Virus record (IMG/VR): IMGVR_UViG_3300028392_000053
Location: 1-64,000 of that record
Length of the DNA: 64,000 nt
From: a virus
Reading direction: 5' to 3' (one strand)
Shown: positions 1-8,553 of the stretch, piece by piece
Numbering within the stretch: the stretch's first letter is position 1
Layout of the letters: each line of letters opens with the position of its first letter
The notes under the pieces: model-generated
The model's database searches: none
Told to the model about the DNA's origin: nothing
What the model saw: the letters and a program-made list of their open reading frames with translations, nothing else
Program-made: the position numbers and the translations under genes

Positions 1-7
1 ATGTAAG

Positions 8-202
8 ATGATTATGTTTAAAGTGATAGGAAAAGAAGAATCGTTTAAGGTTCTTACACTTGCAGAAGCAATGAATCTTGCTAAAAATATGAATGAGTTT
101 GTGACCATCCGTGGTCCTGATTTTGAAGTTGTTGGCAAATTCGGTGTGGATGTTGTGACCGATCCAAACTATGATGGTTGGATATCACGGAAAAAAGGTT
201 AA
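8..202 (+). CDS. hypothetical protein
   Basis: 64-aa ORF ending just before tRNA-Cys. Confidence 0.6.
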   Translation: MIMFKVIGKEESFKVLTLAEAMNLAKNMNEFVTIRGPDFEVVGKFGVDVVTDPNYDGWISRKKG

Positions 203-203
203 T

Positions 204-279
204 GTCGGCATGACCCGAATGGCTAGGGAACGGATTGCAACCCCGTTATATGCAGGTTCGACTCCTGTTGCCGACTCCA
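204..279 (+). tRNA. trnC: tRNA-Cys(GCA)
   Basis: Acceptor GTCGGCA/TGCCGAC, anticodon GCA, TTCGA T-loop, encoded CCA. Confidence 0.92.
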
Positions 280-357
280 CTTTTCATAAAGGTTGTTTTT
301 ATGACCTTTATGACTGGTTTTTGTTCGTAATGGCTCTTTTTAAGACCTTTATGACAG

Positions 358-418
358 TGTTGTTTTTTAACAACAACATGCAAATAGATGTTGACAAAGC
401 CGCTGGTTCTGTTATACT
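358..418 (+). promoter_or_regulatory. sigma70-type promoter with upstream TGTTG-N8-CAACA palindrome
   Basis: Palindrome 358-375, TTGACA 391-396, TATACT 413-418. Confidence 0.7.
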
Positions 419-463
419 CTATGCATAGATTGAGAAATCAATAAGTAACTGCGAAAAAGCAGA

Positions 464-524
464 TGTTGTTTTTAAGCAACAAAGCGAAAAAAGTAGTTGC
501 CAAGAAAGATAGTTGTGTTATAAT
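464..524 (+). promoter_or_regulatory. sigma70-type promoter with upstream TGTTG-N8-CAACA palindrome
   Basis: Palindrome 464-481, TTGCCA 497-502, TGnTATAAT ending 524. Confidence 0.7.
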
Positions 525-591
525 AGACACATAGCAACAAATGATTGAGTCAGTTGCAAGAAAGTTCTTTAAAAAGTTAAGTGTAATTTGT

Positions 592-666
592 GCTCCTGTC
601 GTCTACTGGCTAGGACGCTGCCCTTTCAAGGCGGAAAAGAGGGATCGAAACCCTTCAGGAGTACCA
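592..666 (+). tRNA. trnE: tRNA-Glu(TTC)
   Basis: Cloverleaf, anticodon loop CTTTCAA, CCA. Confidence 0.92.
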
Positions 667-880
667 TATTAAAATGCATTAGGTTACCAACCCAGTAGGT
701 ACCTTAGCAGAGAACTATTCCTAGTGACGGCTAGGCTCTGCTAAGACTACATGAAGCCCCCCGAAGGTGCTGGAACAAGTTGGAATGTAATGTGTTTGAC
801 AAACAAGTCCGTGGACGGCACGGTAGGGCAGGATCAAAACTGTTATTTTTGTCAAACATCCTAGTGTGTTTTAATATGGT
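663..880 (+). ncRNA. structured ncRNA closed by 21-bp stem (family B)
   Basis: 663-683 pairs with 860-880 with G-U pairs; internal TGTTTGACAAA/TTTGTCAAACA helix; no ORF. Confidence 0.65.
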
Positions 881-882
881 AG

Positions 883-1010
883 TGTCATTTGTTTTGTTGA
901 TGTAAGCCATGAGGGAAACGTCAACCTTGAGTAACTATGTACAGAAACGGTAATTGTTGCAACTGACTCCGTTGAGCATAGCAAATAGTGCGTCAACAAA
1001 ACAAATGATA
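883..1010 (+). ncRNA. structured ncRNA closed by 22-bp stem
   Basis: TGTCATTTGTTTTGTTGATGTA pairs with TGCGTCAACAAAACAAATGATA; ends 1 nt before tRNA-Lys. Confidence 0.6.
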
Positions 1011-1011
1011 T

Positions 1012-1085
1012 GGGGGTATAACTTAGTGGTAAAGTAGTAGGCTTTTAACCTATTAACCAGAGTTCAATTCTCTGTGCCCCTACCA
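1012..1085 (+). tRNA. trnK: tRNA-Lys(TTT)
   Basis: Cloverleaf, loop CTTTTAA, CCA. Confidence 0.93.
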
Positions 1086-1093
1086 AAGATTTT

Positions 1094-1159
1094 AGGATAA
1101 GTTCAGCAAACATTTATACATTTGACTTTTAATCAAAACCGTAAAAAATTATCCTGTTG
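1094..1159 (+). ncRNA. Y-RNA-like ncRNA (family A) carrying a Lys(UUU) anticodon stem-loop
   Basis: AGGATAA/TTATCCT closing stem, GTTCAGCAA motif, internal TTTGA-CTTTTAA-TCAAA. Confidence 0.75.
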
Positions 1160-1165
1160 TATTTT

Positions 1166-1241
1166 GCCCTGGTGACGGAATGGTATACGTACTGGTCTTA
1201 GAAACCAGGTTCTGAGAGTTCGAGTCTCTCCTAGGGCACCA
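1166..1241 (+). tRNA. trnL: tRNA-Leu(TAG), short variable loop
   Basis: Cloverleaf, loop CTTAGAA, 5-nt variable region, CCA. Confidence 0.9.
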
Positions 1242-1371
1242 AATCGGAAAGCAAAAACTTTCTGTTAATCCATACATTATGTGTATGGCGGGTCCAGCGG
1301 GGCATCACATGGTGTTCTTTCGGTGTCCACGTTAGAGACACGGCTAAAGTTCGTAATGCCACATATTTTTA

Positions 1372-1446
1372 GGTCTTAAAGTGTTCATGGACGCACACAT
1401 GCCTGTCACGCATGAAGAAGGGGATCGTTACCCCTTAAGACCGCCA
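1372..1446 (+). tRNA. trnD: tRNA-Asp(GTC)
   Basis: Cloverleaf, loop CTGTCAC, GCCA end. Confidence 0.9.
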
Positions 1447-1452
1447 AGATTT

Positions 1453-1526
1453 CCTCCGTTAGCTCAATGGTAGAGCAATCGGCTGATAACCGATAGACAG
1501 AAGTTCAATTCTTCTACAGAGGACCA
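1453..1526 (+). tRNA. trnI: tRNA-Ile(GAT)
   Basis: Cloverleaf, loop CTGATAA, CCA. Confidence 0.9.
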
Positions 1527-1532
1527 AGTTTT

Positions 1533-1590
1533 AGAATCCATTCAGCAAATAAAAACTTTCACTGGAAATGAAAAAAAGCGGATTCTGTTG
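1533..1590 (+). ncRNA. Y-RNA-like ncRNA (family A) carrying a Ser(GGA) anticodon stem-loop
   Basis: AGAATCC/GGATTCT closing stem, ATTCAGCAA motif, internal TTTCA-CTGGAAA-TGAAA. Confidence 0.75.
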
Positions 1591-1597
1591 TATTTTT

Positions 1598-1685
1598 GGA
1601 GCCTGTTCCCTTCAGCGGACTGTAAATCCGTTGCCTTTAATTGGAGGGTGGTTGGCGGATGGTTCGATTCCTTCAGGCTCCACCA
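1598..1685 (+). tRNA. trnY: atypical tRNA-Tyr(GTA) lacking a canonical D-arm
   Basis: Acceptor GGAGCCT/AGGCTCC-ACCA, loop CTGTAAA, T-loop TTCGATT; only ~10 nt between acceptor and anticodon stems. Confidence 0.7.
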
Positions 1686-1687
1686 GT

Positions 1688-1716
1688 TGCCAACATATAT
1701 AAAGTATGTTATAATA
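1688..1716 (+). promoter_or_regulatory. sigma70-type promoter inside tRNA array
   Basis: TTGCCA followed by TGTTATAAT just upstream of tRNA-fMet. Confidence 0.6.
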
Positions 1717-1723
1717 GTTTTAT

Positions 1724-1798
1724 CGCGGGATAGGAAAGAGGTAATCCGCTAGGTTCATACCCTAGAGATCGGTGGTTCAATTCCACCTCCCGCAACCA
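1724..1798 (+). tRNA. trnM: tRNA-fMet(CAT), initiator-like
   Basis: C1:A72 mismatch, CAT anticodon, CCA. Confidence 0.85.
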
Positions 1799-1804
1799 GT
1801 TTTC

Positions 1805-1878
1805 GCCCTATTAGTATAATGGTATTACACCTGTTTTGTAATCAGGTTACGGCAGTTCGATTCTGTCATGGGGCACCA
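1805..1878 (+). tRNA. trnT: tRNA-Thr(TGT)
   Basis: Cloverleaf, loop TTTGTAA, CCA. Confidence 0.92.
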
Positions 1879-1887
1879 AGTTTTTTT

Positions 1888-1961
1888 GCGGGGTTAGTTT
1901 AATGGTAAAACTACAGATTTCCAATCTGTTGTTGAGAGTTCGATTCTCTCACCCCGCTCCA
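1888..1961 (+). tRNA. trnG: tRNA-Gly(TCC)
   Basis: Cloverleaf, loop TTTCCAA, TCCA end. Confidence 0.93.
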
Positions 1962-1967
1962 GTTTAT

Positions 1968-2033
1968 GCAGTCGGATATTAACCGTGTTGGGGTCCACCC
2001 AATATCTACGTGGGAATCGTAGTGACTGCTCCA
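1968..2033 (+). ncRNA. 66-nt miniature tRNA-like RNA ending TCCA (Gly-like)
   Basis: GCAGTC/GACTGC acceptor-like stem, three hairpins, central loop GGTCCAC, no TTCG T-loop. Confidence 0.6.
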
Positions 2034-2038
2034 GTTTT

Positions 2039-2112
2039 CTCGGTGTGGTGAAATGGTATCATGCATGGTTTGGGACCATGTGGCGAAGGTTCGATTCCTT
2101 CTACCGAGACCA
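2039..2112 (+). tRNA. trnP: tRNA-Pro(TGG)
   Basis: Cloverleaf, loop TTTGGGA, CCA. Confidence 0.92.
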
Positions 2113-2130
2113 GTTTTATAGTTAGAATAT

Positions 2131-2206
2131 TCCGGTGAAGCAAACTAGGTGTGGGCAGAGGACTGTTAATCCTTGAAGCCAGGTTCGAATCCTGGGACCG
2201 GAGCCA
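2131..2206 (+). tRNA. trnN: tRNA-Asn(GTT)
   Basis: Cloverleaf, loop CTGTTAA, GCCA. Confidence 0.88.
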
Positions 2207-2211
2207 ATTTT

Positions 2212-2285
2212 GGGGAATTAGTATAATGGTATTACGGCAGCCTTGCAAGTTGTTCATAGGAGTTCGATTCTCCTATTCTCCACCA
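2212..2285 (+). tRNA. trnA: tRNA-Ala(TGC)
   Basis: Cloverleaf, G3:U70, loop CTTGCAA, CCA. Confidence 0.93.
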
Positions 2286-2291
2286 AATTTA

Positions 2292-2366
2292 GGTGATATG
2301 ACGTAGATGGATGCGTAACGGTTTCATAAGCCGATGAGGAAGGCTCGGTACCTTCTATCACCACCA
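2292..2366 (+). tRNA. trnM: tRNA-Met(CAT)
   Basis: Cloverleaf, loop TTCATAA, atypical T-loop CTCGGTA, CCA. Confidence 0.82.
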
Positions 2367-2380
2367 AAAGATACGAAACT

Positions 2381-2388
2381 TATAAATA
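2381..2388 (+). promoter_or_regulatory. T4-type late promoter TATAAATA
   Basis: Exact T4 gp55 consensus upstream of RBS AAGGAG and HNH ORF. Confidence 0.6.
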
Positions 2389-2411
2389 GTTCGTATACTT
2401 AAGGAGATAAC

Positions 2412-2840
2412 ATGAAAATATGTTCTTGTTGTAAAATAGAATATCCAATAGAAAAATTTGCCTTTAAAAATAAGGCATTAGATAAAAGAAATGCAATGTG
2501 TGATGATTGTAGGCAAGAGAGACAAAAACTTTCTTATTATAAACACCACGAAACGAATTTGAAAAGAATTAAACAATATAAAAAAGACAATAAAGAATGG
2601 TTTTTCGAAATGAAAAATAAACTATCTTGTTGTGTTTGTGGTGAATCGGAATCTTATTGTTTAGATTTTCACCATCTTGATGTTGCTAAAAAAGAGTTTG
2701 ATATTTCCACAAAAGTGGATGCTAGTAAAAATAAAATTTTAGAAGAAATCAATAAGTGTGCTTGTCTATGTGCAAATTGTCACAGAAAACATCACGCCGG
2801 CAAATTAAATGCGCCTTTGGTGAAACTGGATATCACATGA
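2412..2840 (+). CDS. HNH endonuclease (zinc-finger type)
   Basis: CxxC pairs, LDFHH...LCANCHRKHH; RBS AAGGAG; 3' end overlaps tRNA-Arg. Confidence 0.85.
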   Translation: MKICSCCKIEYPIEKFAFKNKALDKRNAMCDDCRQERQKLSYYKHHETNLKRIKQYKKDNKEWFFEMKNKLSCCVCGESESYCLDFHHLDVAKKEFDISTKVDASKNKILEEINKCACLCANCHRKHHAGKLNAPLVKLDIT

Positions 2841-2886
2841 GTCTACGAAATTCAGATTGGGGATTCGAATTCCTCAGGGCGCACCA
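2811..2886 (+). tRNA. trnR: tRNA-Arg(ACG)
   Basis: GCGCCTT/AGGGCGC-ACCA, loop CTACGAA. Confidence 0.9.
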
Positions 2887-2903
2887 ATTTTTAGGAGTTT
2901 TAA

Positions 2904-3038
2904 ATGGCTAATGTTAAAAAAGGCAATCTGACTGGTGCTCCACAATGGTGGAAACACCTCAAAGATTTCAAACGAGTGTTTTGGAAAACAGAACGCAAGG
3001 CTCAACAAAAAGACCTAAAAGGAAGATTGTATGAGTGA
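2904..3038 (+). CDS. small basic hypothetical protein (44 aa, MANVKKGNLTGAPQWWKHLK...)
   Basis: RBS AGGAG, overlaps start of next ORF; below ORF-track cutoff. Confidence 0.6.
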   Translation: MANVKKGNLTGAPQWWKHLKDFKRVFWKTERKAQQKDLKGRLYE

Positions 3039-3237
3039 TGGTGGAAAAGGTTCGTCACCCAGACCTTATAGTGTTTCGCAAAACGAATTCTCTAAGAATT
3101 GGGACACAATCTTTAGAAAAGATCCACGGGAAATTGAGGATCAAAAAAATGAAGATGAGGCTTTTGAAGAAATTTCACGGAGAGTCCTAGATATGCCTGG
3201 AACAATTGGTTCAGCTAAAATTGTTTTTTCCGTGTGA
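3031..3237 (+). CDS. hypothetical protein
   Basis: 68-aa ORF starting MSDGGKGSSPRP. Confidence 0.65.
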   Translation: MSDGGKGSSPRPYSVSQNEFSKNWDTIFRKDPREIEDQKNEDEAFEEISRRVLDMPGTIGSAKIVFSV

Positions 3238-3258
3238 TTCAGAAGTTAAAAATAATAT

Positions 3259-3332
3259 GTCTCGATAGTGTAATGGCAGCACTGCGGTCTCCAAAACCGT
3301 AAGTCTAGGTTCGAGTCCTAGTCGGGATGCCA
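3259..3332 (+). tRNA. trnW: tRNA-Trp(CCA)
   Basis: Cloverleaf, loop CTCCAAA, GCCA. Confidence 0.92.
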
Positions 3333-3346
3333 AATAAGGAAATGAT

Positions 3347-3838
3347 ATGAAAAATTTTGATATCCAAAAAGTAAAAGATTTTATTTTGGCTCAAGGACCA
3401 GACACACGTGTTTACCTTGGTGCAGACTCCGAACGTATGCGTGTAAACGGAGTTTGGTATGCGGATTACGCTTTGGCTGTCGTTGTTCATATCGATGGTT
3501 GTCACGGATGTAAAATCTTCGGATTTGTTGACCGTGAATTAGATTATGACCACAAGAAGTCCAAGCCTGCAATGCGTTTGATGACAGAAGTTTACAAAGT
3601 ATCCGCTCTGTTCCAAGAAATGCAGGATGTATTGGAAGACCGTCACGTTGAAGTTCACTTGGACCTTAACAAGTCAACTGAACACGGTTCTTCTTGTGTT
3701 GTTCAACAAGCAATTGGTTATATCAAAGGTACATGTAACATGACACCAATGGTTAAGCCAGATGCGCCGGCCGCTTCTTTCTGTGCAGACCGTCTAAAGC
3801 GGATTCTAGCAGAACAAGAATTGACCGAAGCCCACTAA
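3347..3838 (+). CDS. RNase H-like YkuK (DUF458) family protein
   Basis: YLGADS, RLMTEV, EVHLDLN, ASFCAD motifs. Confidence 0.75.
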   Translation: MKNFDIQKVKDFILAQGPDTRVYLGADSERMRVNGVWYADYALAVVVHIDGCHGCKIFGFVDRELDYDHKKSKPAMRLMTEVYKVSALFQEMQDVLEDRHVEVHLDLNKSTEHGSSCVVQQAIGYIKGTCNMTPMVKPDAPAASFCADRLKRILAEQELTEAH

Positions 3839-3877
3839 TCTCCTACATAAGGGTTTAACTACCCTTAGGAGATTAGT

Positions 3878-4261
3878 ATGGCTAGAAAACCAAATTTAGC
3901 AAAGACTGCGAATAGAGATACACACGTTGGTCATGGAATGGATAGAAGTCCTAAATGGCCTGGTGTTCAGAAACTACATTTGAAGTTTCATCCTGTTTGC
4001 GAATCTTGTGGTTCAACTAACAATTTGAATGTCCATCATAAGAAGCCATTCCATTTGTTTCCAGAACATGAATTGGATTTAAATAATCTAATTACACTTT
4101 GTATGGATCCATTGAAAGAGTGTCATATTAAAATTGGACATGGTGATAACTTTAAAGACTACAATCCAGAAGTAGAAACAGATGCACAAAAAGTTCGATT
4201 AGATGTTAATTTATTTGAATCGGTTGTAGCAGAAGCAAAGAAGAAACGTTTAATATCTTAA
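3878..4261 (+). CDS. HNH endonuclease
   Basis: CESCG...NVHHKKP...NLITLC...CHIKIGH. Confidence 0.8.
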   Translation: MARKPNLAKTANRDTHVGHGMDRSPKWPGVQKLHLKFHPVCESCGSTNNLNVHHKKPFHLFPEHELDLNNLITLCMDPLKECHIKIGHGDNFKDYNPEVETDAQKVRLDVNLFESVVAEAKKKRLIS

Positions 4262-4302
4262 ACACGGCTGGACCCTCTGCGAAAGTGCGGTCCAGTTCTC
4301 AT

Positions 4303-4376
4303 GCGGGTATGATGTAATGGTAGCTTATGACCTTGCCAAGGTTAATGTGAGAGTTCGATTCTCTCTACCCGCTCCA
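4303..4376 (+). tRNA. trnG: tRNA-Gly(GCC)
   Basis: Cloverleaf, loop TTGCCAA, TCCA. Confidence 0.92.
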
Positions 4377-4384
4377 GTTTTTAT

Positions 4385-4459
4385 GTGGTTGTTAGTTTAG
4401 TGGCAAAACCGCGGGTTGTGATTCCGCTATCACGGGTTCGATTCCCGTACATCCACCCA
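4385..4459 (+). tRNA. trnH: tRNA-His(GTG)
   Basis: G-1:C73, loop TTGTGAT, CCA. Confidence 0.92.
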
Positions 4460-4478
4460 ATTTTATTAAGGATATTTT

Positions 4479-4718
4479 ATGACGTATGTTCCATTGAATC
4501 GTAATGTAATTGTTGAACGAAAAGCACCAGAGAAAGTTTCTGCTGGTGGTATCATTCTTCAATCTTCACTTGAACCAGACCGTGCAACTGTTGTTGCTAC
4601 CTCTGACGAATCCCTTTCAATTGGTGAAGAACTATTGATTAATTGGAACAAAGCATATAAGATTGAAAATGAAACATATCGTATTCACATTGATGATGTG
4701 ATTGCAGTATTTGAATAA
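4479..4718 (+). CDS. groES: GroES-like co-chaperonin
   Basis: PLNRNVIVER...SAGGIIL mobile loop...DDVIAV. Confidence 0.85.
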   Translation: MTYVPLNRNVIVERKAPEKVSAGGIILQSSLEPDRATVVATSDESLSIGEELLINWNKAYKIENETYRIHIDDVIAVFE

Positions 4719-4793
4719 GCCTTGTTAACTCAGCGGTAGAGTGCCCTCCTTACAAGTGGGAAGCCGGCGGTTCGATCCCGTCACAAGGTACCA
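4719..4793 (+). tRNA. trnV: tRNA-Val(TAC)
   Basis: Cloverleaf, loop CTTACAA, CCA. Confidence 0.92.
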
Positions 4794-4796
4794 AGT

Positions 4797-4975
4797 TTTG
4801 TAAGTGTAGATGTAGTGAAAGTAAGGCGTCGAAAACCTTATGAGGCAACGGTTCGAGTCCGGCAACATGGCAACGGCTAAGTAACTACTATTACTACGTA
4901 CCTCTATCCTGTCCGCGGCTTTAAAGAAAATACAGGTAGAATGGTTTCGATGAGTGAGGTGGAACTACTTACAAA
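4797..4975 (+). ncRNA. putative structured ncRNA (~180 nt)
   Basis: TTTGTAAGT/ACTTACAAA closing stem, internal hairpins, T-loop-like CGGTTCGAGTCCG, no ORF. Confidence 0.5.
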
Positions 4976-5028
4976 TTCAATTTCTCCATAACACACGGAG
5001 TATAATAGGATAAGTTGTGTGTTAATTT

Positions 5029-5102
5029 GCTTTTATCGTACAGTGACAGTACACGCCCTTGGTACGGGCGAAACCCAAGTTTGATTCTTGGTAGAAGCAC
5101 CA
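5029..5102 (+). tRNA. trnT: tRNA-Thr(GGT)
   Basis: Cloverleaf, loop TTGGTAC, CCA. Confidence 0.87.
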
Positions 5103-5106
5103 ATTT

Positions 5107-5182
5107 GCGTCTTTAGCTGATATGGTTATAGCACCGGTTTGAAGCACCGAGGAAAGTGGTTCGATTCCACTAGGACGCACCA
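5107..5182 (+). tRNA. trnF: tRNA-Phe(GAA)
   Basis: Cloverleaf, loop TTGAAGC, CCA. Confidence 0.9.
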
Positions 5183-5305
5183 TATTGAAACATATTCATC
5201 ATTGGTTGGGAGCCTGTAGCGGATGGCATCCGGGACTACTCAACGAAACAGCATTAGCCAGCGTGATGAAAAGCCTCTTGACGGCGAGAGTATGTTTCAA
5301 TATGG
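5180..5305 (+). ncRNA. structured ncRNA closed by 18-bp stem (family B)
   Basis: CCATATTGAAACATATTC pairs with GAGTATGTTTCAATATGG. Confidence 0.65.
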
Positions 5306-5378
5306 GTTGTAAACTTAAGTGGTGAAGTAACCGGCTCTTAACCGGAAGAACAGAGTTCGATTCTCTGACAGCCCACCA
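5304..5378 (+). tRNA. trnK: tRNA-Lys(CTT)
   Basis: Cloverleaf, loop CTCTTAA, CCA. Confidence 0.92.
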
Positions 5379-5383
5379 AATTT

Positions 5384-5510
5384 GGAGATGTGATGTAATG
5401 GTAGCATAGCATAGCAAAAAAATTATCCTGTAAAGGATAAGTTCTGCAACAACTACGCTCTAACTCTGTAAAAGTTCTTGTGTGCGGTTCGAATCCCACC
5501 ATCTCCACCA
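5384..5510 (+). ncRNA. chimeric tRNA / family A RNA (circularly permuted, CCA-ended)
   Basis: Acceptor GGAGATG/CATCTCC-ACCA with D- and T-arms; insert TTATCCT-GTAA-AGGATAA-GTTCTGCAA plus AACT-CTGTAAA-AGTT hairpin. Confidence 0.75.
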
Positions 5511-5517
5511 ATTTTAT

Positions 5518-5593
5518 GCCCCGATGACGGAATGGTATACGTGCTTGATTCAAAATCAAGATTCTGTGGGTTCGAGTCCCACTTGGGGTACCA
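5518..5593 (+). tRNA. trnL: tRNA-Leu(CAA), short variable loop
   Basis: Cloverleaf, loop TTCAAAA, CCA. Confidence 0.9.
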
Positions 5594-5594
5594 T

Positions 5595-5683
5595 GGAAGA
5601 TGCAGTAAGATGGTTCTTACACCTGCTTGGAAAGCAGGCCACTGGCTTTGCCGGTGGGGGTTCAATTCCTCCTTCTTCCACCA
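5595..5683 (+). tRNA. trnS: tRNA-Ser(GGA)
   Basis: Long variable arm, loop TTGGAAA, CCA. Confidence 0.9.
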
Positions 5684-5684
5684 T

Positions 5685-5759
5685 GTCTCTGTAGTTCAAC
5701 GGATAGAATACATTCCTCCTAAGAATGGGATACAGGCTCGATTCCTGTCGGAGACACCA
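5685..5759 (+). tRNA. trnR: tRNA-Arg(CCT)
   Basis: Cloverleaf, loop CTCCTAA, CCA. Confidence 0.9.
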
Positions 5760-5820
5760 TGTTGTTTTTAGGTAACAATGCAAGAAAAGTCTTGCCAAAT
5801 TACACTTAACGTGATATAAT
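5760..5820 (+). promoter_or_regulatory. promoter for Y-like RNA + DUF2828 unit
   Basis: TGTTG-N8-TAACA 5760-5777, TTGCCA 5792-5797, 17-nt spacer, TATAAT 5815-5820. Confidence 0.75.
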
Positions 5821-5848
5821 CTTTATATGGAGATTATATAAGTTTTTT

Positions 5849-6060
5849 AGGATGGATTCAGCAATTATAAACTTAATTGACTAAAGACCCGTTACTACAG
5901 GAGGACCACCGCAAGGTGTAATTACGTAACTAGGGAATCAACCTGAATTAAATTTGACGCTGGAAAAGACAGCAAAGATGATGGTAGTCCATTAGGGTTT
6001 GAGTGGTTCAATTGCACTCCGGTTAGAGTAAACCGAAAATTACAGAACGACCATCCTGTT
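5849..6060 (+). ncRNA. long Y-RNA-like ncRNA (family A)
   Basis: AGGATGG/CCATCCT stem, ATTCAGCAA motif, multi-hairpin interior with T-arm-like GAGTGGTTCAATTGCACTC. Confidence 0.72.
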
Positions 6061-6079
6061 ATTTTATTTTGAGAGTTTT

Positions 6080-6188
6080 AGAGTAGGTTCAGCAAAACAA
6101 AACTAGCTGGTTCGATTCCAGCATTATCCACCCAAACTCGAAAGAGACTCGGATCATGTGCCATGGTGGCAATCAAACTACTCTGTTG
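6080..6188 (+). ncRNA. YrlA-like Y RNA (family A)
   Basis: AGAGTAG/CTACTCT stem, GTTCAGCAA, T-arm GCTGG-TTCGATT-CCAGC preceding a D-like hairpin. Confidence 0.78.
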
Positions 6189-6193
6189 TTTTT

Positions 6194-6314
6194 AGGTTAA
6201 GTTCCGCAAAACAAATTAATGCAAATGGAAACTGAAAGGCCGGTTCGATTCCGGGTTCCCTTAGAGGATAAAGTGTAATGGTTGCACATCGGATGCTAAA
6301 AGTTTAACCTGTTG
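6194..6314 (+). ncRNA. YrlA-like Y RNA (family A)
   Basis: AGGTTAA/TTAACCT stem, GTTCCGCAA, T-arm CCGG-TTCGATT-CCGG then D-arm GTGTAATGGTTGCAC. Confidence 0.8.
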
Positions 6315-6332
6315 ATTGAAAAGGAGTTCATT

Positions 6333-7754
6333 ATGTCAACATTTGTCGAAGCCGTTATGAATCAAGAAGCCCGTACCGAAAACGGTATGAAGGCTCGCAA
6401 GTCTACCGCCAATGCGGTGGTTGATTTGTTTTACAATGCGGGTGCATCCCGTGGAAAAGATATTAAGCCTGCATTTGCGGCTGCCTTGGCAGAGAACCGT
6501 GAATTGGCTCTCCGTGTTGCCGCATGGCTACGTGATGCACGTGGTGGTGCTGGTGAACGTCAACTGTTCCGTGATATCCTAGTGTATCTGGAAAAGACTG
6601 ATACGGAAGCCGCTAAGGCTCTGTTGGCTAAGGTGCCTGAATTGGGACGTTGGGATGACTTGTTCATCTTCAAGACCAAGGTTTTGAAAGAAGCCGCATA
6701 TACCTTGCTTGGCAACGCTTTGCGTGAAAAGAATGGTTTGGCGGCTAAGTGGTCTCCTCGCCAAGGTCCAATTGCGGCAGAAATCCGTACATTCTTCGGA
6801 ATGTCACCAAAGTTCTACCGCAAGTCTTTGGTTGAAATGACCAAGGTTGTTGAAACAAATATGTGTGCAAAGGACTGGGATTCCATTAACTTTTCACATG
6901 TTCCTTCCGTAGCGGCTGCCCGTTACAAGAAGGCCTTTAATCGTAACACCCAAACATATGCAACTTATGTTGCGGCTTTGGTAAAGGGTGACAACCCTGA
7001 AGTTAAGGTTAACGCATCTGTGGCATTCCCATATGATGTGCTGAAGGGTCGTATCTCCAACTATGGAGTTTCATTCAACAAGACCGAATTGGACTTGATT
7101 GAAGCACAATGGAATGCATTGCCTAACTATGTTGGGGATGCTAACATTCTGCCTCTAGTTGACGTATCTGGTTCTATGACCTGCACCGCAGGCAAGACCG
7201 GTAAGTTGACCTGTTTGGAAGTTGCAGTCTCTTTGGGATTGTACCTTGCTGACAAGAACAAGGGTGCGTTCAAGGACACATTCTTGACCTTCTCTGGCAA
7301 GCCAGAATTGATGCACCTAAAAGGTGGTATCAACTCTAAGATTGACCAAATGGTTAAGTCCAACTGGGATATGAACACTGACCTGAACAAGGCCTTTGCG
7401 AAAATCCTAGACGTTGCTGTAAAAGGTAACGTAGCACAAGAAGATATGCCAGGAATGGTGTTGATTCTGTCTGACATGCAATTTGACGCTTGCGTTAAGC
7501 ATGATGACTCTGCAATCGAAATGATTGCACGTAAGTACGAAGCCGCAGGATACACTTTACCAAAGGTTGTATTCTGGAACTTGAACGCCTCATATGGTAA
7601 CTCACCTGTGAAGTTTGACAAGTCTGGTACTGCACTGGTGTCTGGTTTCTCTCCAGCCGTGGTTAAGCCACTCCTTGCTGGTGACCTAGAAACCTTCACA
7701 CCAGAATCTGTGATGCTTAAGACCATCATGGATGACCGTTACAAAGTGCTGTAA
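6333..7754 (+). CDS. DUF2828-type helical + vWA protein, Ro60/TROVE-like putative RNA-binding protein
   Basis: RTENG, LRDARGGAGER, GRWDDL, LAAKW, MIDAS DVSGS, ILSDMQFD, VFWNL, LVSGFS; RBS AAGGAG before ATG 6333. Confidence 0.8.
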   Translation: MSTFVEAVMNQEARTENGMKARKSTANAVVDLFYNAGASRGKDIKPAFAAALAENRELALRVAAWLRDARGGAGERQLFRDILVYLEKTDTEAAKALLAKVPELGRWDDLFIFKTKVLKEAAYTLLGNALREKNGLAAKWSPRQGPIAAEIRTFFGMSPKFYRKSLVEMTKVVETNMCAKDWDSINFSHVPSVAAARYKKAFNRNTQTYATYVAALVKGDNPEVKVNASVAFPYDVLKGRISNYGVSFNKTELDLIEAQWNALPNYVGDANILPLVDVSGSMTCTAGKTGKLTCLEVAVSLGLYLADKNKGAFKDTFLTFSGKPELMHLKGGINSKIDQMVKSNWDMNTDLNKAFAKILDVAVKGNVAQEDMPGMVLILSDMQFDACVKHDDSAIEMIARKYEAAGYTLPKVVFWNLNASYGNSPVKFDKSGTALVSGFSPAVVKPLLAGDLETFTPESVMLKTIMDDRYKVL

Positions 7755-7774
7755 CGCAGTGGGCACCGAAAGGT

Positions 7775-7860
7775 GTCCATTTTGAAATACATTACTGAAG
7801 TTGGTTCAGTCAGACAGGGATATCCAATTGCCTATGTCGTTAGTGTGTTTCAAAATGGAC
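7775..7860 (+). ncRNA. structured ncRNA closed by 20-bp stem (family B)
   Basis: GTCCATTTTGAAATACATTA pairs with TAGTGTGTTTCAAAATGGAC. Confidence 0.62.
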
Positions 7861-7862
7861 AT

Positions 7863-7940
7863 GCGGATGTAGCCGAATTTGGTATAGGCAATGGACTTAA
7901 AATCCATAATCTGAGGGTTCGAGTCCCTCTATCCGCACCA
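7863..7940 (+). tRNA. trnL: tRNA-Leu(TAA), short variable loop
   Basis: Cloverleaf, loop CTTAAAA, CCA. Confidence 0.9.
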
Positions 7941-7943
7941 AAT

Positions 7944-8018
7944 GCTCCGATAGCTTAATGGTAAAGCAGTGAACTCATAATTCATTGAGTCTAGGTTCAA
8001 TTCCTAGTCGGAGCACCA
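7944..8018 (+). tRNA. tRNA(CAT), Met or Ile2
   Basis: Cloverleaf, loop CTCATAA, CCA; third CAT tRNA in the array. Confidence 0.85.
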
Positions 8019-8039
8019 ATGTTTTGGATATATAAGGCC

Positions 8040-8474
8040 ATGAAAAAGCTAATTCCTATTCAATCTCTGGACCATCCACTTGCAGGTCACCTAAAAGACG
8101 ATCCAATTCGTCCAGAAATTCCTCATGAAATGAGAGTTGGTATTAACTGTGAGGTACTAGCACTCCAGTTAGAAGAAATTTTAGGTGCAATGGTATGCGT
8201 CAAATACCATGATTCAATTCCATCAAGCGTAGATGAATTGCTAGAGACCGCAAAGAATCCTTCAGTTGCTGTATTTTACACAATATGGAGTTATGCCGCA
8301 GGCGCAGGCAGAGATTTACTCCTTGAAGCCAGAAAATACATTGAGGGTAATAATCCAAACATAAAAGAGTTTGTGACTTATAGCCCAAAAACTGAAATGG
8401 CCAAACGTTTTCATTTAAAAAACGGTGCGTCCATTTACAGAGAAAATCTCGATTCAGTAAACTACAAATATTGA
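8040..8474 (+). CDS. hypothetical protein (possible GNAT-like fold)
   Basis: FYTIWSY..GAGR.LL and A.RFH.KNGA motifs. Confidence 0.6.
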   Translation: MKKLIPIQSLDHPLAGHLKDDPIRPEIPHEMRVGINCEVLALQLEEILGAMVCVKYHDSIPSSVDELLETAKNPSVAVFYTIWSYAAGAGRDLLLEARKYIEGNNPNIKEFVTYSPKTEMAKRFHLKNGASIYRENLDSVNYKY

Positions 8475-8553
8475 TTCCCACTTTGCCGGTTTGATAAATA
8501 GTTGTGTTGGTGTGAAACCAACCACAATTTTGTCAACACCCTAAAGGAAAAAA

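What the first reader, a model, noticed from the sequence alone, without database searches (positions are those of the whole stretch)
1094..1159. Mini-RNA displaying a free tRNA-Lys(UUU) anticodon arm
Inside the family A scaffold, the only structure is a perfect 5-bp stem with a canonical 7-nt anticodon loop, TTTGA-CTTTTAA-TCAAA (1121-1137). The loop is identical to that of the tRNA-Lys immediately upstream. Established: tRNA-Lys(UUU) is the target of the anticodon nuclease PrrC. Inference: this RNA is a decoy or inhibitor for anticodon nucleases or anticodon-modifying enzymes.
Basis: partly seen in the sequence, partly recalled or inferred. Interest (0 to 1): 0.88.

Follow-up and report, generated by a model that had tools for sequence, protein, structure and literature searches.

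The report
Lysine anticodon arm on handle RNA
A phage hides, among its tRNA genes, a 62-base RNA that carries a copy of the anticodon hairpin of bacterial lysine tRNA on a conserved "handle" linked to a Ro60-like ring protein, so it may serve as bait for host enzymes that read or cut tRNA anticodons.

Summary
The hairpin is real: TTTGA-CTTTTAA-TCAAA at 1121-1137, inside a 7-bp closing stem (1094-1100/1149-1155). It belongs to a family found in 19 of 22 pattern-matched viral loci and near most of 78 loci that encode relatives of the neighbouring DUF2828 protein. Both stems covary (97.5% of cells paired against 71% when shuffled).

Of 74 distinct relatives with a 7-nt loop, 63 keep Y32-U33...R37 and 55 keep YU-NNN-AA. 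Only 1-3% of background hairpins do. The triplet varies: UGU, UUU, UAU, GUU, GUA, GGA, UCU.

The 17-mer is letter for letter the anticodon arm of tRNA-Lys(UUU) genes in at least 105 bacterial species. It matches none of the 1,696 tRNA genes in the related phage loci.

The scaffold is the "handle" (AG...CUGU stem plus UUCAGCAA). Copies of it end 22-24 nt before the DUF2828 gene, and that protein's model folds like Ro60.

A decoy or bait role against anticodon-directed nucleases fits the data but was not tested. Expression, protein binding and host are unknown.

This scan has already noted the handle/DUF2828 system on other DNA (57 notes), including the sister RNA at 1533-1590 of this window.

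The parts
1012..1085 (+). tRNA-Lys(UUU) gene just upstream. Its anticodon arm is GTAGG-CTTTTAA-CCTAT: same loop as the mini-RNA, different stem.
   Evidence: ARAGORN; Rfam tRNA 69.6 bits; arm extracted
1086..1093 (+). 8-nt U-rich spacer (AAGATTTT) between the tRNA's CCA end and the mini-RNA. Family members generally start 5-8 nt after the preceding tRNA.
1094..1100 (+). 5' strand of the 7-bp closing stem (AGGATAA). The leading AG is invariant or nearly so.
   Evidence: 100% of cells paired in 100 distinct sequences; 6 of 7 pairs changed on both sides
1101..1110 (+). Handle motif G-UUCAGCAAA, single-stranded, next to the 5' strand of the stem
   Evidence: T13 T14 C15 G17 C18 A19 A20 invariant in 58 sequences; aligns to the CUUACAGCAA motif of Rfam RF01414
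1117..1119 (+). 5' strand (TAC) of a 2-3-bp extension helix below the anticodon-like stem, followed by unpaired A1120
   Evidence: pair 29:53 is G-C in 12 and A-U in 7 sequences; pair 30:52 is C-G in all 19
1121..1137 (+). Anticodon-arm look-alike: 5-bp stem TTTGA/TCAAA and 7-nt loop CTTTTAA (C32 U33 UUU A37 A38)
   Evidence: The exact 17-mer is positions 27-43 of 105 ARAGORN-called bacterial tRNA-Lys(UUU) genes. 15 of 17 letters match E. coli lysT.
1141..1143 (+). 3' strand (GTA) of the extension helix, preceded by unpaired ACC (1138-1140)
1149..1155 (+). 3' strand of the closing stem (TTATCCT)
1156..1165 (+). Conserved 3' tail GTTGTATTTT. With the last two stem bases it reads CUGU, the conserved 3' end of the handle. 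tRNA-Leu starts at 1166.
   Evidence: C65 T66 G67 T68 T69 invariant in 58 sequences
1533..1586 (+). Sister mini-RNA with the same handle. Arm is TTTCA-CTGGAAA-TGAAA (triplet GGA).
   Evidence: 55.1 bits; RF01414 34.5 bits
5423..5449 (+). Circularly permuted handle (TTATCCT-GTAA-AGGATAA-GTTCTGCAA) inside the tRNA-shaped RNA at 5384-5510. It uses the same stem letters as the 1094 mini-RNA.
5849..6057 (+). 209-nt handle RNA with a large payload
   Evidence: pattern scan
6080..6184 (+). 105-nt handle RNA whose payload holds a T-arm-like hairpin (GCTGGTTCGATTCCAGC)
   Evidence: model R1 42.5 bits
6194..6310 (+). 117-nt handle RNA with T-arm-like and D-arm-like hairpins. It ends 22 nt before the DUF2828 start codon.
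6333..7754 (+). DUF2828/DUF7788 protein (473 aa), predicted to be a Ro60-like ring plus vWA domain; the presumed partner of the handle
   Evidence: Pfam E 1e-48 and 1.5e-21. AF2 model pLDDT 93.7. All five top Foldseek PDB hits are Ro60/TROVE, best 1yvr at E 6.7e-9.
497..524 (+). Nearest upstream strong sigma-70-like promoter match (TTGCCA-16-TATAAT, 11 of 12, TG-extended). It probably drives the transcript that contains the mini-RNA.
   Evidence: consensus match only

Best explanation
Positions 1094-1159 encode a small RNA of about 62-66 nt that is co-transcribed with the phage's tRNAs. It has two modules.

The 'handle' is a 7-bp closing stem that starts with AG and ends with CUGU, followed on the 5' side by single-stranded UUCAGCAA. 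It is the docking site for the phage's Ro60-like DUF2828 ring protein, much as a Y RNA stem docks on Ro60.

The payload is a faithful copy of the anticodon arm of bacterial tRNA-Lys(UUU): 5 bp, a C-U-UUU-A-A loop, and a short stacked helix below it.

The resulting particle shows this arm to a host protein that recognises tRNA anticodon arms. The most likely target is a tRNA-cleaving defence nuclease of the PrrC, RloC, colicin or PARIS-AriB kind. The arm would then act as bait or competitor and spare real tRNAs. Sister RNAs with other triplets would cover other tRNAs.

Shown here: the RNA fold (by covariation), conservation of the anticodon-loop signature, identity of the arm to real tRNA-Lys arms, linkage of the handle to the DUF2828 gene, and the Ro60-like predicted fold.

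Inferred: transcription and processing, protein binding, and the bait function.
For: (1) Fold. The closing stem is 100% paired with 6 of 7 pairs changed on both sides. The inner stem is 96% paired with 5 of 5 changed, in 100 distinct sequences. The same fold comes from RNAalifold on an alignment not fitted to any structure.

(2) Loop signature. 80 of 100 distinct members have a 7-nt loop. Of 75 with full stems, position 33 is U in 73, position 32 is C in 62, position 37 is A in 68 and position 38 is A in 65, while positions 34-36 vary. 55 of 74 have YU-NNN-AA, against 1.2-2.7% of background hairpins and 682 of 949 real tRNAs. One stem, TTTCA/TGAAA, carries 11 different loops.

(3) The arm is a real tRNA-Lys arm. 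Of 121 exact 17-mer matches in bacterial genomes, 105 are positions 27-43 of tRNA-Lys(UUU) genes and 4 more are truncated tRNA-Lys genes. 15 of 17 letters match E. coli lysT. None of the 44 distinct family hairpins equals any of 1,696 tRNA arms in the phage loci. The window's arm is at least 4 mismatches from any of the 52 phage tRNA-Lys arms.

(4) Descent from or relation to tRNA. Some long members enclose a whole D-arm + anticodon arm (CTTCTAA or CTTTTAA) + T-arm body within the handle (L054, L047, L063).

(5) Triplet switching. The window and L004 differ only by T to C at position 35 (UUU to UCU). The same switch occurs on the TTAGA stem background. Position 35 is one of only two hot spots among otherwise identical pairs.

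(6) Link to DUF2828. 45 of 62 loci have a handle RNA ending within 60 nt of the gene, mostly 22-24 nt, and in many of them this RNA is a mini-RNA. 57 of 62 have at least one upstream. 4 of 5 records found through the RNA alone also carry the gene.

(7) The protein folds like Ro60. Ro60 partners with Y RNAs that mimic tRNA (PMC4201824, abstract and sections 5-6 read).

(8) The commonest triplets, UGU (24) and UUU (16), are the two prime targets of the PARIS nuclease AriB; its secondary target GUU is also present (6, behind UAU with 7). The window's arm carries that enzyme's cut-site context U36-A-A-U-C|A41 exactly, whereas the phage's own tRNA-Lys differs at positions 39 and 41. Those are the two positions whose change makes T5 tRNA-Lys resistant (PMC12409363, abstract and passages).
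Against: No evidence of expression or RNA ends. The only RNA data were metatranscriptome contigs, which do not resolve this element.

The fold is thermodynamically unremarkable (z -0.11), and the arm has a single G-C pair, so it probably needs a protein or the scaffold for stability.

Binding of DUF2828 to the handle rests only on gene neighbourhood and analogy.

The AriB paper states that the enzyme probably also contacts the D-loop and other parts of the tRNA, so a bare arm may be a poor AriB ligand. E. coli PARIS is only a model, and the host of this phage is unknown.

A decoy must compete with abundant cellular tRNA.

An exact match to some bacterial tRNA-Lys arm is not very improbable, given about 185,000 species and an A/U-rich stem.

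The triplet hot spot rests on only 3 groups.

In 8 loci with more distant DUF2828 genes (38-51% identity), the 3 mini handle RNAs found have no clear 5-bp/7-nt arm. The arm payload may therefore be limited to one clade.

Most type-3 minis share one stem whatever the triplet, so only the loop is mimicked there.
Confidence: 0.35

Rival explanations
1. Y-RNA-like partner without anticodon-specific recognition. The RNA binds the Ro60-like ring through its handle and acts as a gate, tether or stabiliser. The payload hairpin is a structural filler inherited from a tRNA ancestor, and no protein reads it as an anticodon arm.
For: Payloads in the family are very diverse: T-arm, D-arm, whole tRNA bodies, non-tRNA interiors such as AAGCTAAC...GTCTAGCGAC, and a 209-nt body. 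Minis and long forms replace each other at the position just before the DUF2828 gene. Distant lineages have minis without an arm. Known Y RNAs work as gates and tethers (PMC4201824 sections read; PMC12135203 passages).
Against: A filler would not need U33 in 73 of 75, C32, A37 and A38, and exactly 7 loop bases in 80 of 100, kept through 23 different covarying stems. Nor would it need a letter-perfect bacterial tRNA-Lys arm.
Confidence: 0.25
2. The arm mimic is aimed at housekeeping tRNA-binding proteins rather than defence nucleases. Candidates are aminoacyl-tRNA synthetases that read the anticodon (LysRS, AsnRS, AspRS, ThrRS, IleRS, ArgRS) and anticodon-loop modification enzymes. The RNA would titrate them, recruit them, or simply be modified by them.
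For: YrlA Y RNAs are real substrates of tRNA-modifying enzymes and RNase P (PMC4201824 abstract and section headings). Most triplets end in U or A with A37, the contexts of the t6A and i6A enzymes (recalled). Viral and bacterial precedents of anticodon-arm mimics that bind synthetases exist: the HIV-1 tRNA-like element (PMC5689005, search listing only) and the thrS operator (recalled).
Against: There is no obvious benefit to a lytic phage that carries its own near-complete tRNA set. Triplets such as GGA and UGA (Ser) belong to tRNAs whose synthetase ignores the anticodon (recalled). No synthetase or modification gene was seen next to the element.
Confidence: 0.2
3. Processing punctuation of the tRNA operon. 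The stem and its U-rich flanks are cleavage or folding signals for RNase E, RNase P or exonucleases that help mature neighbouring tRNAs. The excised piece is unstable and has no function of its own.
For: Members sit like tRNA genes in the array, 5-8 nt after one tRNA and 9-11 nt before the next, flanked by UUUU runs. Strong promoter-like sites are far apart, so long precursors are likely.
Against: Most tRNA junctions in the array have no such element. Conservation of the inner loop and the UUCAGCAA motif, the link to the DUF2828 gene and the permuted handle inside a tRNA-shaped RNA are not explained by a spacer role.
Confidence: 0.1
4. A chance hairpin or a DNA-level signal, for example a promoter using TTGACT at 1122 or a recombination site for shuffling tRNA cassettes.
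For: A weak promoter-like match, TTGACT-16-AAAAAT (9 of 12), lies at 1122-1149. The region is AT-rich and the fold energy is ordinary. An RNA-library contig of a relative lacks one whole cassette, so cassettes come and go.
Against: The -35-like letters are not conserved: the stems covary to TTAGA and TTGAA. Promoter-like matches occur at the shuffle rate, 18 against 18.0. U-G pairs on the + strand, such as TTCTA/TGGAA, would be A-C on the other strand, which favours an RNA read from the + strand.
Confidence: 0.03

Closest known systems
Ro60/Rsr with YrlA-type Y RNAs (Rfam RF02553; Chen et al. 2014, PMC4201824) and Thermus phage phiLo Ro60 with Yrl1/Yrl2 (PMC12135203)
   Same: A ring protein (HEAT-repeat ring plus vWA) is encoded next to small RNAs on the same strand. 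The RNA ends pair into a stem with a conserved motif on the 5' strand, and a second module mimics tRNA. Phage examples are known.
   Different: The protein here is DUF2828/DUF7788, not Pfam TROVE, and its sequence similarity to Ro60 is marginal (E 0.03-0.08). The handle motif is UUCAGCAA/CUGU, not GNCGAA. There is no RF02553 match at 1094-1159. YrlA mimics the T/D elbow and acceptor region and has no anticodon arm. This RNA is the opposite: an anticodon arm and nothing else.
Dictyostelid Class I RNAs (Rfam RF01414; Kjellin et al. 2021, PMC7919456, passages read)
   Same: About 60 nt long. A short covarying stem joins the 5' and 3' ends. There is a conserved (A)AG start and CUGU end, a conserved motif (CCUUACAGCAA there, UUCAGCAA here) right after the 5' strand, and a variable A/U-rich interior. 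All five near-invariant motif bases (T3, C6, C9, A10, A11) are present here.
   Different: This element scores 17.0 bits and its sister 34.5 bits, against a gathering score of 41.5. Class I RNAs have been reported only from dictyostelids. They have their own DUSE promoter, a known RRM-protein partner (Rnp1A), and no reported anticodon-like payload.
Phage T5 tRNA variants that evade PARIS AriB (PMC11464382 search listing; PMC12409363 abstract and passages)
   Same: [quoted passage not shown] This phage's own tRNA-Lys also differs from the E. coli arm at positions 39 and 41.
   Different: T5 supplies uncleavable working tRNAs. Here a non-tRNA carries the cleavable-looking arm (U36AAUC|A41), which suggests bait rather than replacement. 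Nothing has been tested.
Anticodon-arm mimics that bind tRNA-binding proteins: HIV-1 tRNA-like element for LysRS (PMC5689005, search listing only) and the E. coli thrS operator (recalled)
   Same: A hairpin that copies an anticodon loop competes with the tRNA for a protein.
   Different: Those are cis elements within mRNAs or a viral genome and act on synthetases. This is a free-standing small RNA on a protein-docking handle within a tRNA operon.
Stable small RNAs of unknown function in the phage T4 tRNA cluster (species 1 and 2 RNAs; recalled, not checked here)
   Same: Non-tRNA small RNAs encoded within, and processed from, a phage tRNA operon.
   Different: No sequence or structural relation was tested. 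No handle or Ro60-like partner is known for them.

Membership tests
Canonical tRNA | Cloverleaf with D and T arms, detected by tRNA finders | tested here: not met
   ARAGORN calls nothing at 1094-1159. No Rfam tRNA match there even at E up to 10. Only 11 nt lie between the arm and the 3' strand.
Canonical tRNA | 7-bp acceptor stem followed by a discriminator base and CCA | tested here: not met
   A 7-bp stem is present but is followed by GUUG, not NCCA. Neighbouring tRNAs encode CCA.
tRNA anticodon arm (structural motif) | 5-bp stem, 7-nt loop, Y32, U33, R37 | tested here: met
   TTTGA-C-T-TTT-A-A-TCAAA. 63 of 74 distinct relatives keep Y32-U33-R37. Real tRNAs in the same loci: 927 of 949.
tRNA anticodon arm (structural motif) | Sequence identity to genuine tRNA-Lys(UUU) arms | tested here: met
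   105 of 121 exact genome matches are positions 27-43 of tRNA-Lys(UUU) genes. 15 of 17 letters match E. coli lysT.
YrlA-type Y RNA (RF02553) | Match to the Rfam model | tested here: not met
   No RF02553 match at 1094-1159. The only weak match in 1-9000 is at 7884-7997, 24.8 bits against a gathering score of 69.
YrlA-type Y RNA (RF02553) | GNCGAAN0-1G motif near the 5' end (Chen 2014, section 6) | tested here: not met
   The 5' region reads AGGATAAGTTCAGCAAA, with no CGAA.
YrlA-type Y RNA (RF02553) | T-arm-like and D-arm-like domain | tested here: not met
   Absent from this element. Present in the sisters at 6080-6184 and 6194-6310.
YrlA-type Y RNA (RF02553) | Encoded within about 4 kb of a Ro60 ortholog on the same strand | tested here: inconclusive
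   Same strand, but 5.2 kb upstream of a DUF2828 gene that is Ro60-like by fold, not by the Pfam TROVE family. Other family members do abut the gene.
DUF2828-associated handle RNA (unpublished; defined within this scan) | Covarying closing stem that starts with AG and ends with CUGU | tested here: met
   A5-U and G6-C are invariant or nearly so. 6 of 7 pairs changed on both sides, 100% paired.
DUF2828-associated handle RNA (unpublished; defined within this scan) | UU(A)C(A)GCAA motif directly 3' of the 5' strand | tested here: met
   TTCAGCAAA at 1102-1110. T, T, C, G, C, A, A are invariant in 58 sequences.
DUF2828-associated handle RNA (unpublished; defined within this scan) | Travels with a DUF2828 gene | tested here: met
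   Gene at 6333-7754. 57 of 62 related loci have handle RNAs upstream and 45 of 62 have one abutting the gene. 4 of 5 RNA-first records hold the gene.
DUF2828-associated handle RNA (unpublished; defined within this scan) | Physical binding of the handle by the DUF2828 protein | not testable with these tools
   Needs EMSA or co-immunoprecipitation.
Dicty_Class_I_RNA (RF01414) | Score at or above Rfam's gathering score of 41.5 bits | tested here: not met
   17.0 bits at 1095-1156. The sister at 1534-1587 scores 34.5 bits.
Dicty_Class_I_RNA (RF01414) | Short terminal stem, AAG start, CUGU end, 11-nt motif with T3, C6, C9, A10, A11 | tested here: met
   AG...CUGU and UUCAGCAA carry all five near-invariant bases. 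The motif is one base shorter (no A5).
Dicty_Class_I_RNA (RF01414) | DUSE promoter about 60 nt upstream; dictyostelid genome | tested here: not met
   The element lies 8 nt after a tRNA gene in a virus record.
Ro60/TROVE protein (for the partner gene) | HEAT-repeat ring plus vWA/MIDAS fold | tested here: met
   AF2 pLDDT 93.7, pTM 0.91. Foldseek ranks 1-5 are all Ro60/TROVE, E 6.7e-9 to 7.2e-7, TM up to 0.59.
Ro60/TROVE protein (for the partner gene) | Pfam TROVE (PF05731) sequence membership | tested here: not met
   Pfam gives DUF7788 and DUF2828 only. A profile against PDB reaches Ro60/TROVE chains only at E 0.03-0.08.
Decoy of anticodon nucleases | Is bound or cut by, or inhibits, a tRNA-anticodon nuclease | not testable with these tools
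   Only sequence context is available: U36AAUC|A41 is identical to the AriB site in E. coli tRNA-Lys.

The most novel reading that the evidence does not exclude
These phages run a programmable bait system. A Ro60-like ring (DUF2828) is loaded, through a universal handle, with exact copies of host tRNA anticodon arms: Lys UUU here, Thr UGU, Asn GUU, Tyr GUA, Arg UCU and Ser GGA in sisters and relatives. The particle intercepts or silences the host's tRNA-cleaving immune nucleases. Single-base changes in the triplet (UUU to UCU, seen twice) retarget the bait in an arms race. Because the handle shares its plan with the unexplained Class I RNAs of Dictyostelium, those RNAs may be partners of a eukaryotic DUF2828 protein.
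Probability: 0.18. Interest if true: 0.9.

Novelty: new variant of a known kind. Interest (0 to 1): 0.68.

Why it matters
tRNA cleavage in the anticodon arm is now recognised as a common bacterial defence (PrrC, RloC, PARIS, retron and Cas13-linked nucleases). The known phage answers are tRNA repair and replacement tRNAs. An RNA that offers only the targeted arm, mounted on a Ro60-like protein, would be a third strategy: bait.

It would also give a first concrete job to a very widespread but uncharacterised pair, the DUF2828 proteins and their handle RNAs. The element is small, modular and easy to test by EMSA, cleavage competition, and phage knock-outs on hosts with defined defence systems.

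Even if the bait idea fails, the family is a clean natural example of single tRNA modules displayed separately on a common scaffold. In this one genome there is an anticodon arm alone, a T/D elbow alone, and a whole tRNA body lacking its anticodon arm.

Tried and rejected
**Close relatives in GenBank phages.** A blastn 'distant' search of 900-1700 gave only short tRNA matches, with no record covering 80% or more.

**Thermodynamic support.** Single-sequence folds are not better than shuffles, so I relied on covariation instead.

**Pseudoknot.** I considered CAGC (handle) pairing with GUUG (tail) and dropped it. There is no loop to span the 7-bp stem, and both sides are invariant, so no test is possible.

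**Promoter reading of TTGACT at 1122.** Rejected.

**RNA-repair platform with phage-encoded ligases.**
- No RtcB (PF01139) or RNA_ligase (PF09414) in this record, which is estimated 50% complete, or in 4 related records, two of them at least 90% complete.
- PF09511 matched none of the control genomes, so says nothing.
- Host ligases remain possible.

**Expression.**
- The look-up of sequencing runs listed 12 runs, all with small shares (0.05-0.18) of the sampled words.
- The 4 runs I laid are held as contigs only. They give no strand, ends or level, and no listed piece spans 1094-1155.
- I draw no conclusion on expression or habitat from them.

**Rfam gathering scan of 10 loci.** The list was cut at 150 rows, all tRNA. 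It does not show whether any relative reaches the RF01414 threshold.

**First structure prediction.** Run without an alignment, it was useless (pLDDT 42). phmmer against PDB found nothing.

**The protein-atlas search.** It returned only viral DUF2828 clusters, so I could not test whether dictyostelids encode a DUF2828 protein.

**Host identification.** Not achieved. The 17-mer occurs in tRNA-Lys genes of many unrelated taxa.

**More distant lineages.** Searches seeded with P0089 mostly returned loci closer to my own protein (64-79% identity). Only 8 loci were truly distant (38-51%), and their 3 minis lack a clear arm.

**Literature.** I found no description of this RNA family in these searches:
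- 'DUF2828': 5 papers, none about RNA.
- phage / decoy / anticodon nuclease / tRNA-like: 35 papers, 15 listed.
- Y RNA / Ro60 / bacteriophage / tRNA: 11 papers.
- anticodon stem-loop / mimic / phage-encoded / tRNA: 638 papers, 15 listed.
- The 2026 preprint on three tRNA-mimic families concerns other RNAs (abstract only).

Supplementary files were not opened. Chen 2014's supplemental tables of phage YrlA, and figure S3C of the AriB paper (tRNA arm alignments), could bear on the comparisons made here.
Full report
**1. The observation**

The window opens with a dense array of 26 tRNA genes, all on the + strand (ARAGORN; Rfam). Between tRNA-Lys(UUU) (1012-1085) and tRNA-Leu(UAG) (1166-1241) lies the element in question:

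- AGGATAA (1094-1100)
- G-TTCAGCAAA (1101-1110)
- CATTTA (1111-1116)
- TAC (1117-1119)
- A (1120)
- TTTGA (1121-1125)
- CTTTTAA (1126-1132)
- TCAAA (1133-1137)
- ACC (1138-1140)
- GTA (1141-1143)
- AAAAA (1144-1148)
- TTATCCT (1149-1155)
- GTTGTATTTT (1156-1165)

The 7-nt loop equals that of the upstream tRNA-Lys, whose arm is GTAGG-CTTTTAA-CCTAT. The element is not a tRNA. ARAGORN and the Rfam tRNA model find nothing there, there is no T arm, and the 7-bp stem is followed by GUUG instead of NCCA.

**2. It is a conserved, structured RNA family**

A scan of viral contigs for the two invariant flanks (TTCAGCAAA, a gap of 25-55, CTGTTGTATTTT) returned 22 loci. 19 of them (21 of 24 matches) show the same plan; L008, L016 and L018 are chance matches.

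A search with the neighbouring protein gave 78 further loci. A pattern scan over 99 loci plus the 84.5-kb genome found 214 filtered elements. 122 of these were short (45-75 nt), and 73 of those were distinct.

A covariance model built from 19 close relatives found 228 matches at E up to 0.01 in 1.22 Mb.

| Measure | Model-fitted alignment, 100 distinct rows | MAFFT-only alignment, 19 sequences |
|---|---|---|
| Cells paired | 97.5% | 99.3% |
| Shuffled | 71.3% | 83.3% |
| Partners slid | 32-51% | 27-43% |

In the model-fitted alignment the closing stem is paired in every sequence, with 6 of 7 pairs changed on both sides. The inner 5-bp stem is 96% paired, with all 5 pairs changed on both sides.

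That alignment is fitted to the model, so I repeated the count on the alignment made by MAFFT alone. RNAalifold independently predicts the closing stem, the 5-bp/7-nt hairpin and a 2-bp extension. The extension helix (TAC/GTA here, GC/GC in the Thr-type relatives) covaries. 'The only structure' is therefore not quite right.

Energy alone is unremarkable (z -0.11).

**3.

They do.

Of 100 distinct aligned members, 80 have exactly 7 loop bases. For the 75 with full stems:

| Position | Finding |
|---|---|
| 32 | C in 62, T in 5 |
| 33 | T in 73 |
| 37 | A in 68 |
| 38 | A in 65 |
| 34-36 | TGT 24, TTT 16, TAT 7, GTT 6, GTA 4, GGA 4, TCT 3, TGA 3, and eight triplets seen once |

The joint signature compares as follows:

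| Set | Y32-U33-R37 | YU-NNN-AA |
|---|---|---|
| Family, 74 distinct elements | 63 | 55 |
| Family, 44 distinct hairpins | 33 | 26 |
| Real tRNAs, 949 distinct, same loci | 927 | 682 |
| Background hairpins of the same geometry, 7,980, outside tRNA and handle genes | 8.4% | 1.2% |
| Background with AT-rich stems | 9.1% | 1.7% |
| Background with AT-rich stems and loops | 11.3% | 2.7% |

A single stem, TTTCA/TGAAA, carries 11 different loops.

These counts are of related sequences, not independent events. However, the signature holds across 23 different stem pairs.

**4. How good is the mimicry of tRNA-Lys?**

The 17-mer was searched in one genome per bacterial and archaeal species. 105 of these are positions 27-43 of an ARAGORN-called tRNA-Lys(UUU) gene. 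4 more are tRNA-Lys genes cut by a locus end or an integration remnant. 11 look like chance sites.

E. coli lysT, read from the K-12 record, has GTTGA-CTTTTAA-TCAAT. The mini-RNA matches 15 of 17 letters and differs only in the outermost pair. The phage's own tRNA-Lys matches 13 of 17 and differs at pairs 29:41 and 31:39.

None of the 44 distinct family hairpins equals any of the 1,696 tRNA arms called in the phage loci; the closest differ by 2-10 letters. The window's arm is at least 4 letters from all 52 phage tRNA-Lys arms. The arm is therefore not a recent copy of a phage tRNA. It looks like a bacterial one.

Two cautions apply. With so many species and an A/U-rich stem, an exact match to some bacterial arm is not in itself very improbable. 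And the host is unknown.

**5. Direct orthologs**

Eleven distinct sequences, in 23 locus copies (some are overlapping pieces of one contig), share the TACA...ACCGTA linkers of this element. Their stems covary as TTTGA/TCAAA, TTAGA/TCTAA and TTGAA/TTCAA. Nine carry UUU and two carry UCU.

The window and L004 differ in a single letter over 74 bases, T to C at position 35. The same switch is seen on the TTAGA background.

A sliding 3-base mask over 74 distinct members finds pairs that differ in nothing else at only two places: windows covering position 35 (3 groups) and the 5' linker (3-4 groups). This gives modest support for fast change of the triplet.

**6. Relation to tRNA and position in the array**

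Some long members enclose a complete D arm, anticodon arm (CTTCTAA or CTTTTAA loop) and T arm within the handle (L054:5543-5651, L047:6006-6114, L063:2120-2234). The short forms therefore plausibly arose by reduction of tRNA bodies.

Members sit in the array like tRNA genes, 5-8 nt after one tRNA and 9-11 nt before the next. The neighbours differ from phage to phage (Lys, Asp, Trp, Pro, Tyr, Asn, Ile), so adjacency to tRNA-Lys in this window is not general.

Four strong sigma-70-like matches on the + strand (391, 497, 1687, 5792) suggest long precursors. The element would be transcribed from the site at 497-524 (consensus matches only).

**7. The scaffold and its likely partner**

This genome has five linear handle RNAs (1094, 1533, 5849, 6080, 6194). 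It also has a permuted handle (TTATCCT-GTAA-AGGATAA-GTTCTGCAA, 5423-5449) within the tRNA-shaped RNA at 5384-5510.

The last handle RNA ends 22 nt before ORF 6333-7754, which matches Pfam DUF7788 (E 1e-48) and DUF2828 (E 1.5e-21).

- In 45 of 62 related loci with enough upstream sequence, a handle RNA ends within 60 nt of the gene, mostly 22-24 nt. In many of them this RNA is a mini with an anticodon-like arm. 57 of 62 have at least one handle RNA upstream.
- Of 5 records found through the RNA alone, 4 hold the gene. The fifth is a 32%-complete fragment.

With an alignment of 134 homologs, AlphaFold gives a confident model (pLDDT 93.7, pTM 0.91). Its five best PDB matches are all Ro60/TROVE proteins: 1yvr at E 6.7e-9 and TM 0.59, then 9kop, 9nfa, 2nvo and 9l5y. 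A sequence profile reaches the same proteins only weakly (E 0.03-0.08).

Ro60 binds Y RNAs through a terminal stem and a motif on its 5' strand, and bacterial and phage Y RNAs mimic tRNA (PMC4201824, abstract and sections 5-6; PMC12135203, passages). The handle lacks the YrlA motif GNCGAA and does not match RF02553. It is an analogue, not a member.

**8. Resemblance to Dictyostelium Class I RNAs**

Rfam's Dicty_Class_I_RNA model matches the sister element at 34.5 bits and this one at 17.0 bits. The gathering score is 41.5.

The published description of Class I RNAs fits the handle closely: about 60 nt, a 6-bp covarying terminal stem, an AAG start, a CUGU end, and an 11-nt CCUUACAGCAA motif with T3, C6, C9, A10 and A11 nearly invariant (PMC7919456, passages). 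Formal membership is not met.

Other agents of this scan reached the same comparison on other genomes. I could not test whether dictyostelids have a DUF2828 protein.

**9. Mechanism**

The best-supported reading is a two-module RNA: a handle for the Ro60-like ring, and a payload that shows a tRNA-Lys anticodon arm.

What reads the arm is not known. The bait or decoy idea has circumstantial support:
- The two commonest triplets, UGU and UUU, are the prime targets of the PARIS nuclease AriB. Its secondary target GUU is also present.
- AriB cuts between positions 40 and 41 in the context U36-A-A-U-C|A41, which the window's arm has exactly.
- T5 escapes through changes at positions 39 and 41, the same positions at which this phage's own tRNA-Lys differs (PMC12409363, abstract and passages).

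Points against:
- The same paper reports that AriB probably needs contacts outside the arm.
- E. coli is only a model, and the host is unknown.
- The arm is weakly stable.
- Expression is unproven.
- The 8 loci with distant DUF2828 genes gave 3 minis without a clear arm.

A repair-platform reading gets no support from phage-encoded ligases.

I put the full bait model at about 0.35. The narrower statements are more likely: 'handle RNA partner of DUF2828' at about 0.75, and 'payload is under selection as an anticodon-arm look-alike' at about 0.7.

**10. Novelty**

Ro60-Y RNA particles with tRNA-like modules are known. A DUF2828-linked handle family, and within it a member that carries nothing but an anticodon arm, was not found in any of the literature searches named under Tried and rejected.

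The scan itself has noted the handle/DUF2828 system 57 times on other DNA, and a follow-up on the sister RNA at 1533-1590 reached a similar reading.

New in this report:
- the quantitative loop test with controls;
- the letter-for-letter identity to bacterial tRNA-Lys arms, together with non-identity to phage tRNA arms;
- the UUU-to-UCU switches;
- the match to the AriB cut-site context.

Noticed in passing
window 5423-5449 (within 5384-5510), 5007-5016 and 1094-1103: The 10-mer AGGATAAGTT occurs three times in the window, against 0.18 expected and 0 of 100 shuffles with 3. The closing-stem letters of the 1094 mini-RNA are reused exactly in the permuted handle hairpin of the tRNA-shaped RNA at 5384-5510. 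A third copy at 5007 is followed by GTGTG instead of CAGCAA. This suggests recent duplication or recombination among handle cassettes, or possible pairing between the RNAs.
   Followed up: partly
window 6066-6189: A 353-nt contig from an RNA library (run X1, depth 62.7) joins 6065 to 6190 with six other letters between. It comes from a relative that lacks the whole 6080-6184 handle-RNA cassette (tables 5, 5c and 8). Cassettes are gained and lost as units.
   Followed up: no
window 1597-1685: A tRNA-Tyr(GUA)-like gene with a long variable arm. ARAGORN does not call it; Rfam matches it only as tRNA-Sec, at 33.6 bits against a gathering score of 47.
   Followed up: no
window 1962-2038: A 77-nt gap between tRNA-Gly and tRNA-Pro ends in TCCA and looks like a small structured RNA. 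No tRNA or Rfam match.
   Followed up: no
window 391-418, 497-524, 1687-1715, 5792-5820: Four near-consensus, TG-extended sigma-70-like promoter matches (11 of 12), all on the + strand and all in gaps of the tRNA array. The last lies just before the 5849 handle RNA.
   Followed up: no
window 2412-2840, 3347-3838, 3878-4261, 4479-4718: Small ORFs are interspersed in the tRNA array: a Cys-rich 142-aa ORF with no significant Pfam match, an RNaseH_like (PF04308) protein, an HNH endonuclease (PF01844), and a short Cpn10-like protein.
   Followed up: no
L054:5543-5651, L047:6006-6114, L063:2120-2234: Handle RNAs that enclose a complete tRNA-like body: a D arm, an anticodon arm with a CTTCTAA or CTTTTAA loop, and a T arm. 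The handle replaces the acceptor stem and there is no CCA.
   Followed up: partly
L068:4647-4720, L019:6106-6181, L115:837-895 and 1873-1935: In some relatives the handle motif reads TAACAGCAA instead of GTTCAGCAA. This is closer to the Dictyostelium Class I motif CUUACAGCAA.
   Followed up: no
L182, about 2423 on the - strand (bacterial MAG contig): The 17-mer sits at the start of a 3' half of a tRNA-Lys gene that has no 5' half. It looks like a remnant of an integration site.
   Followed up: no
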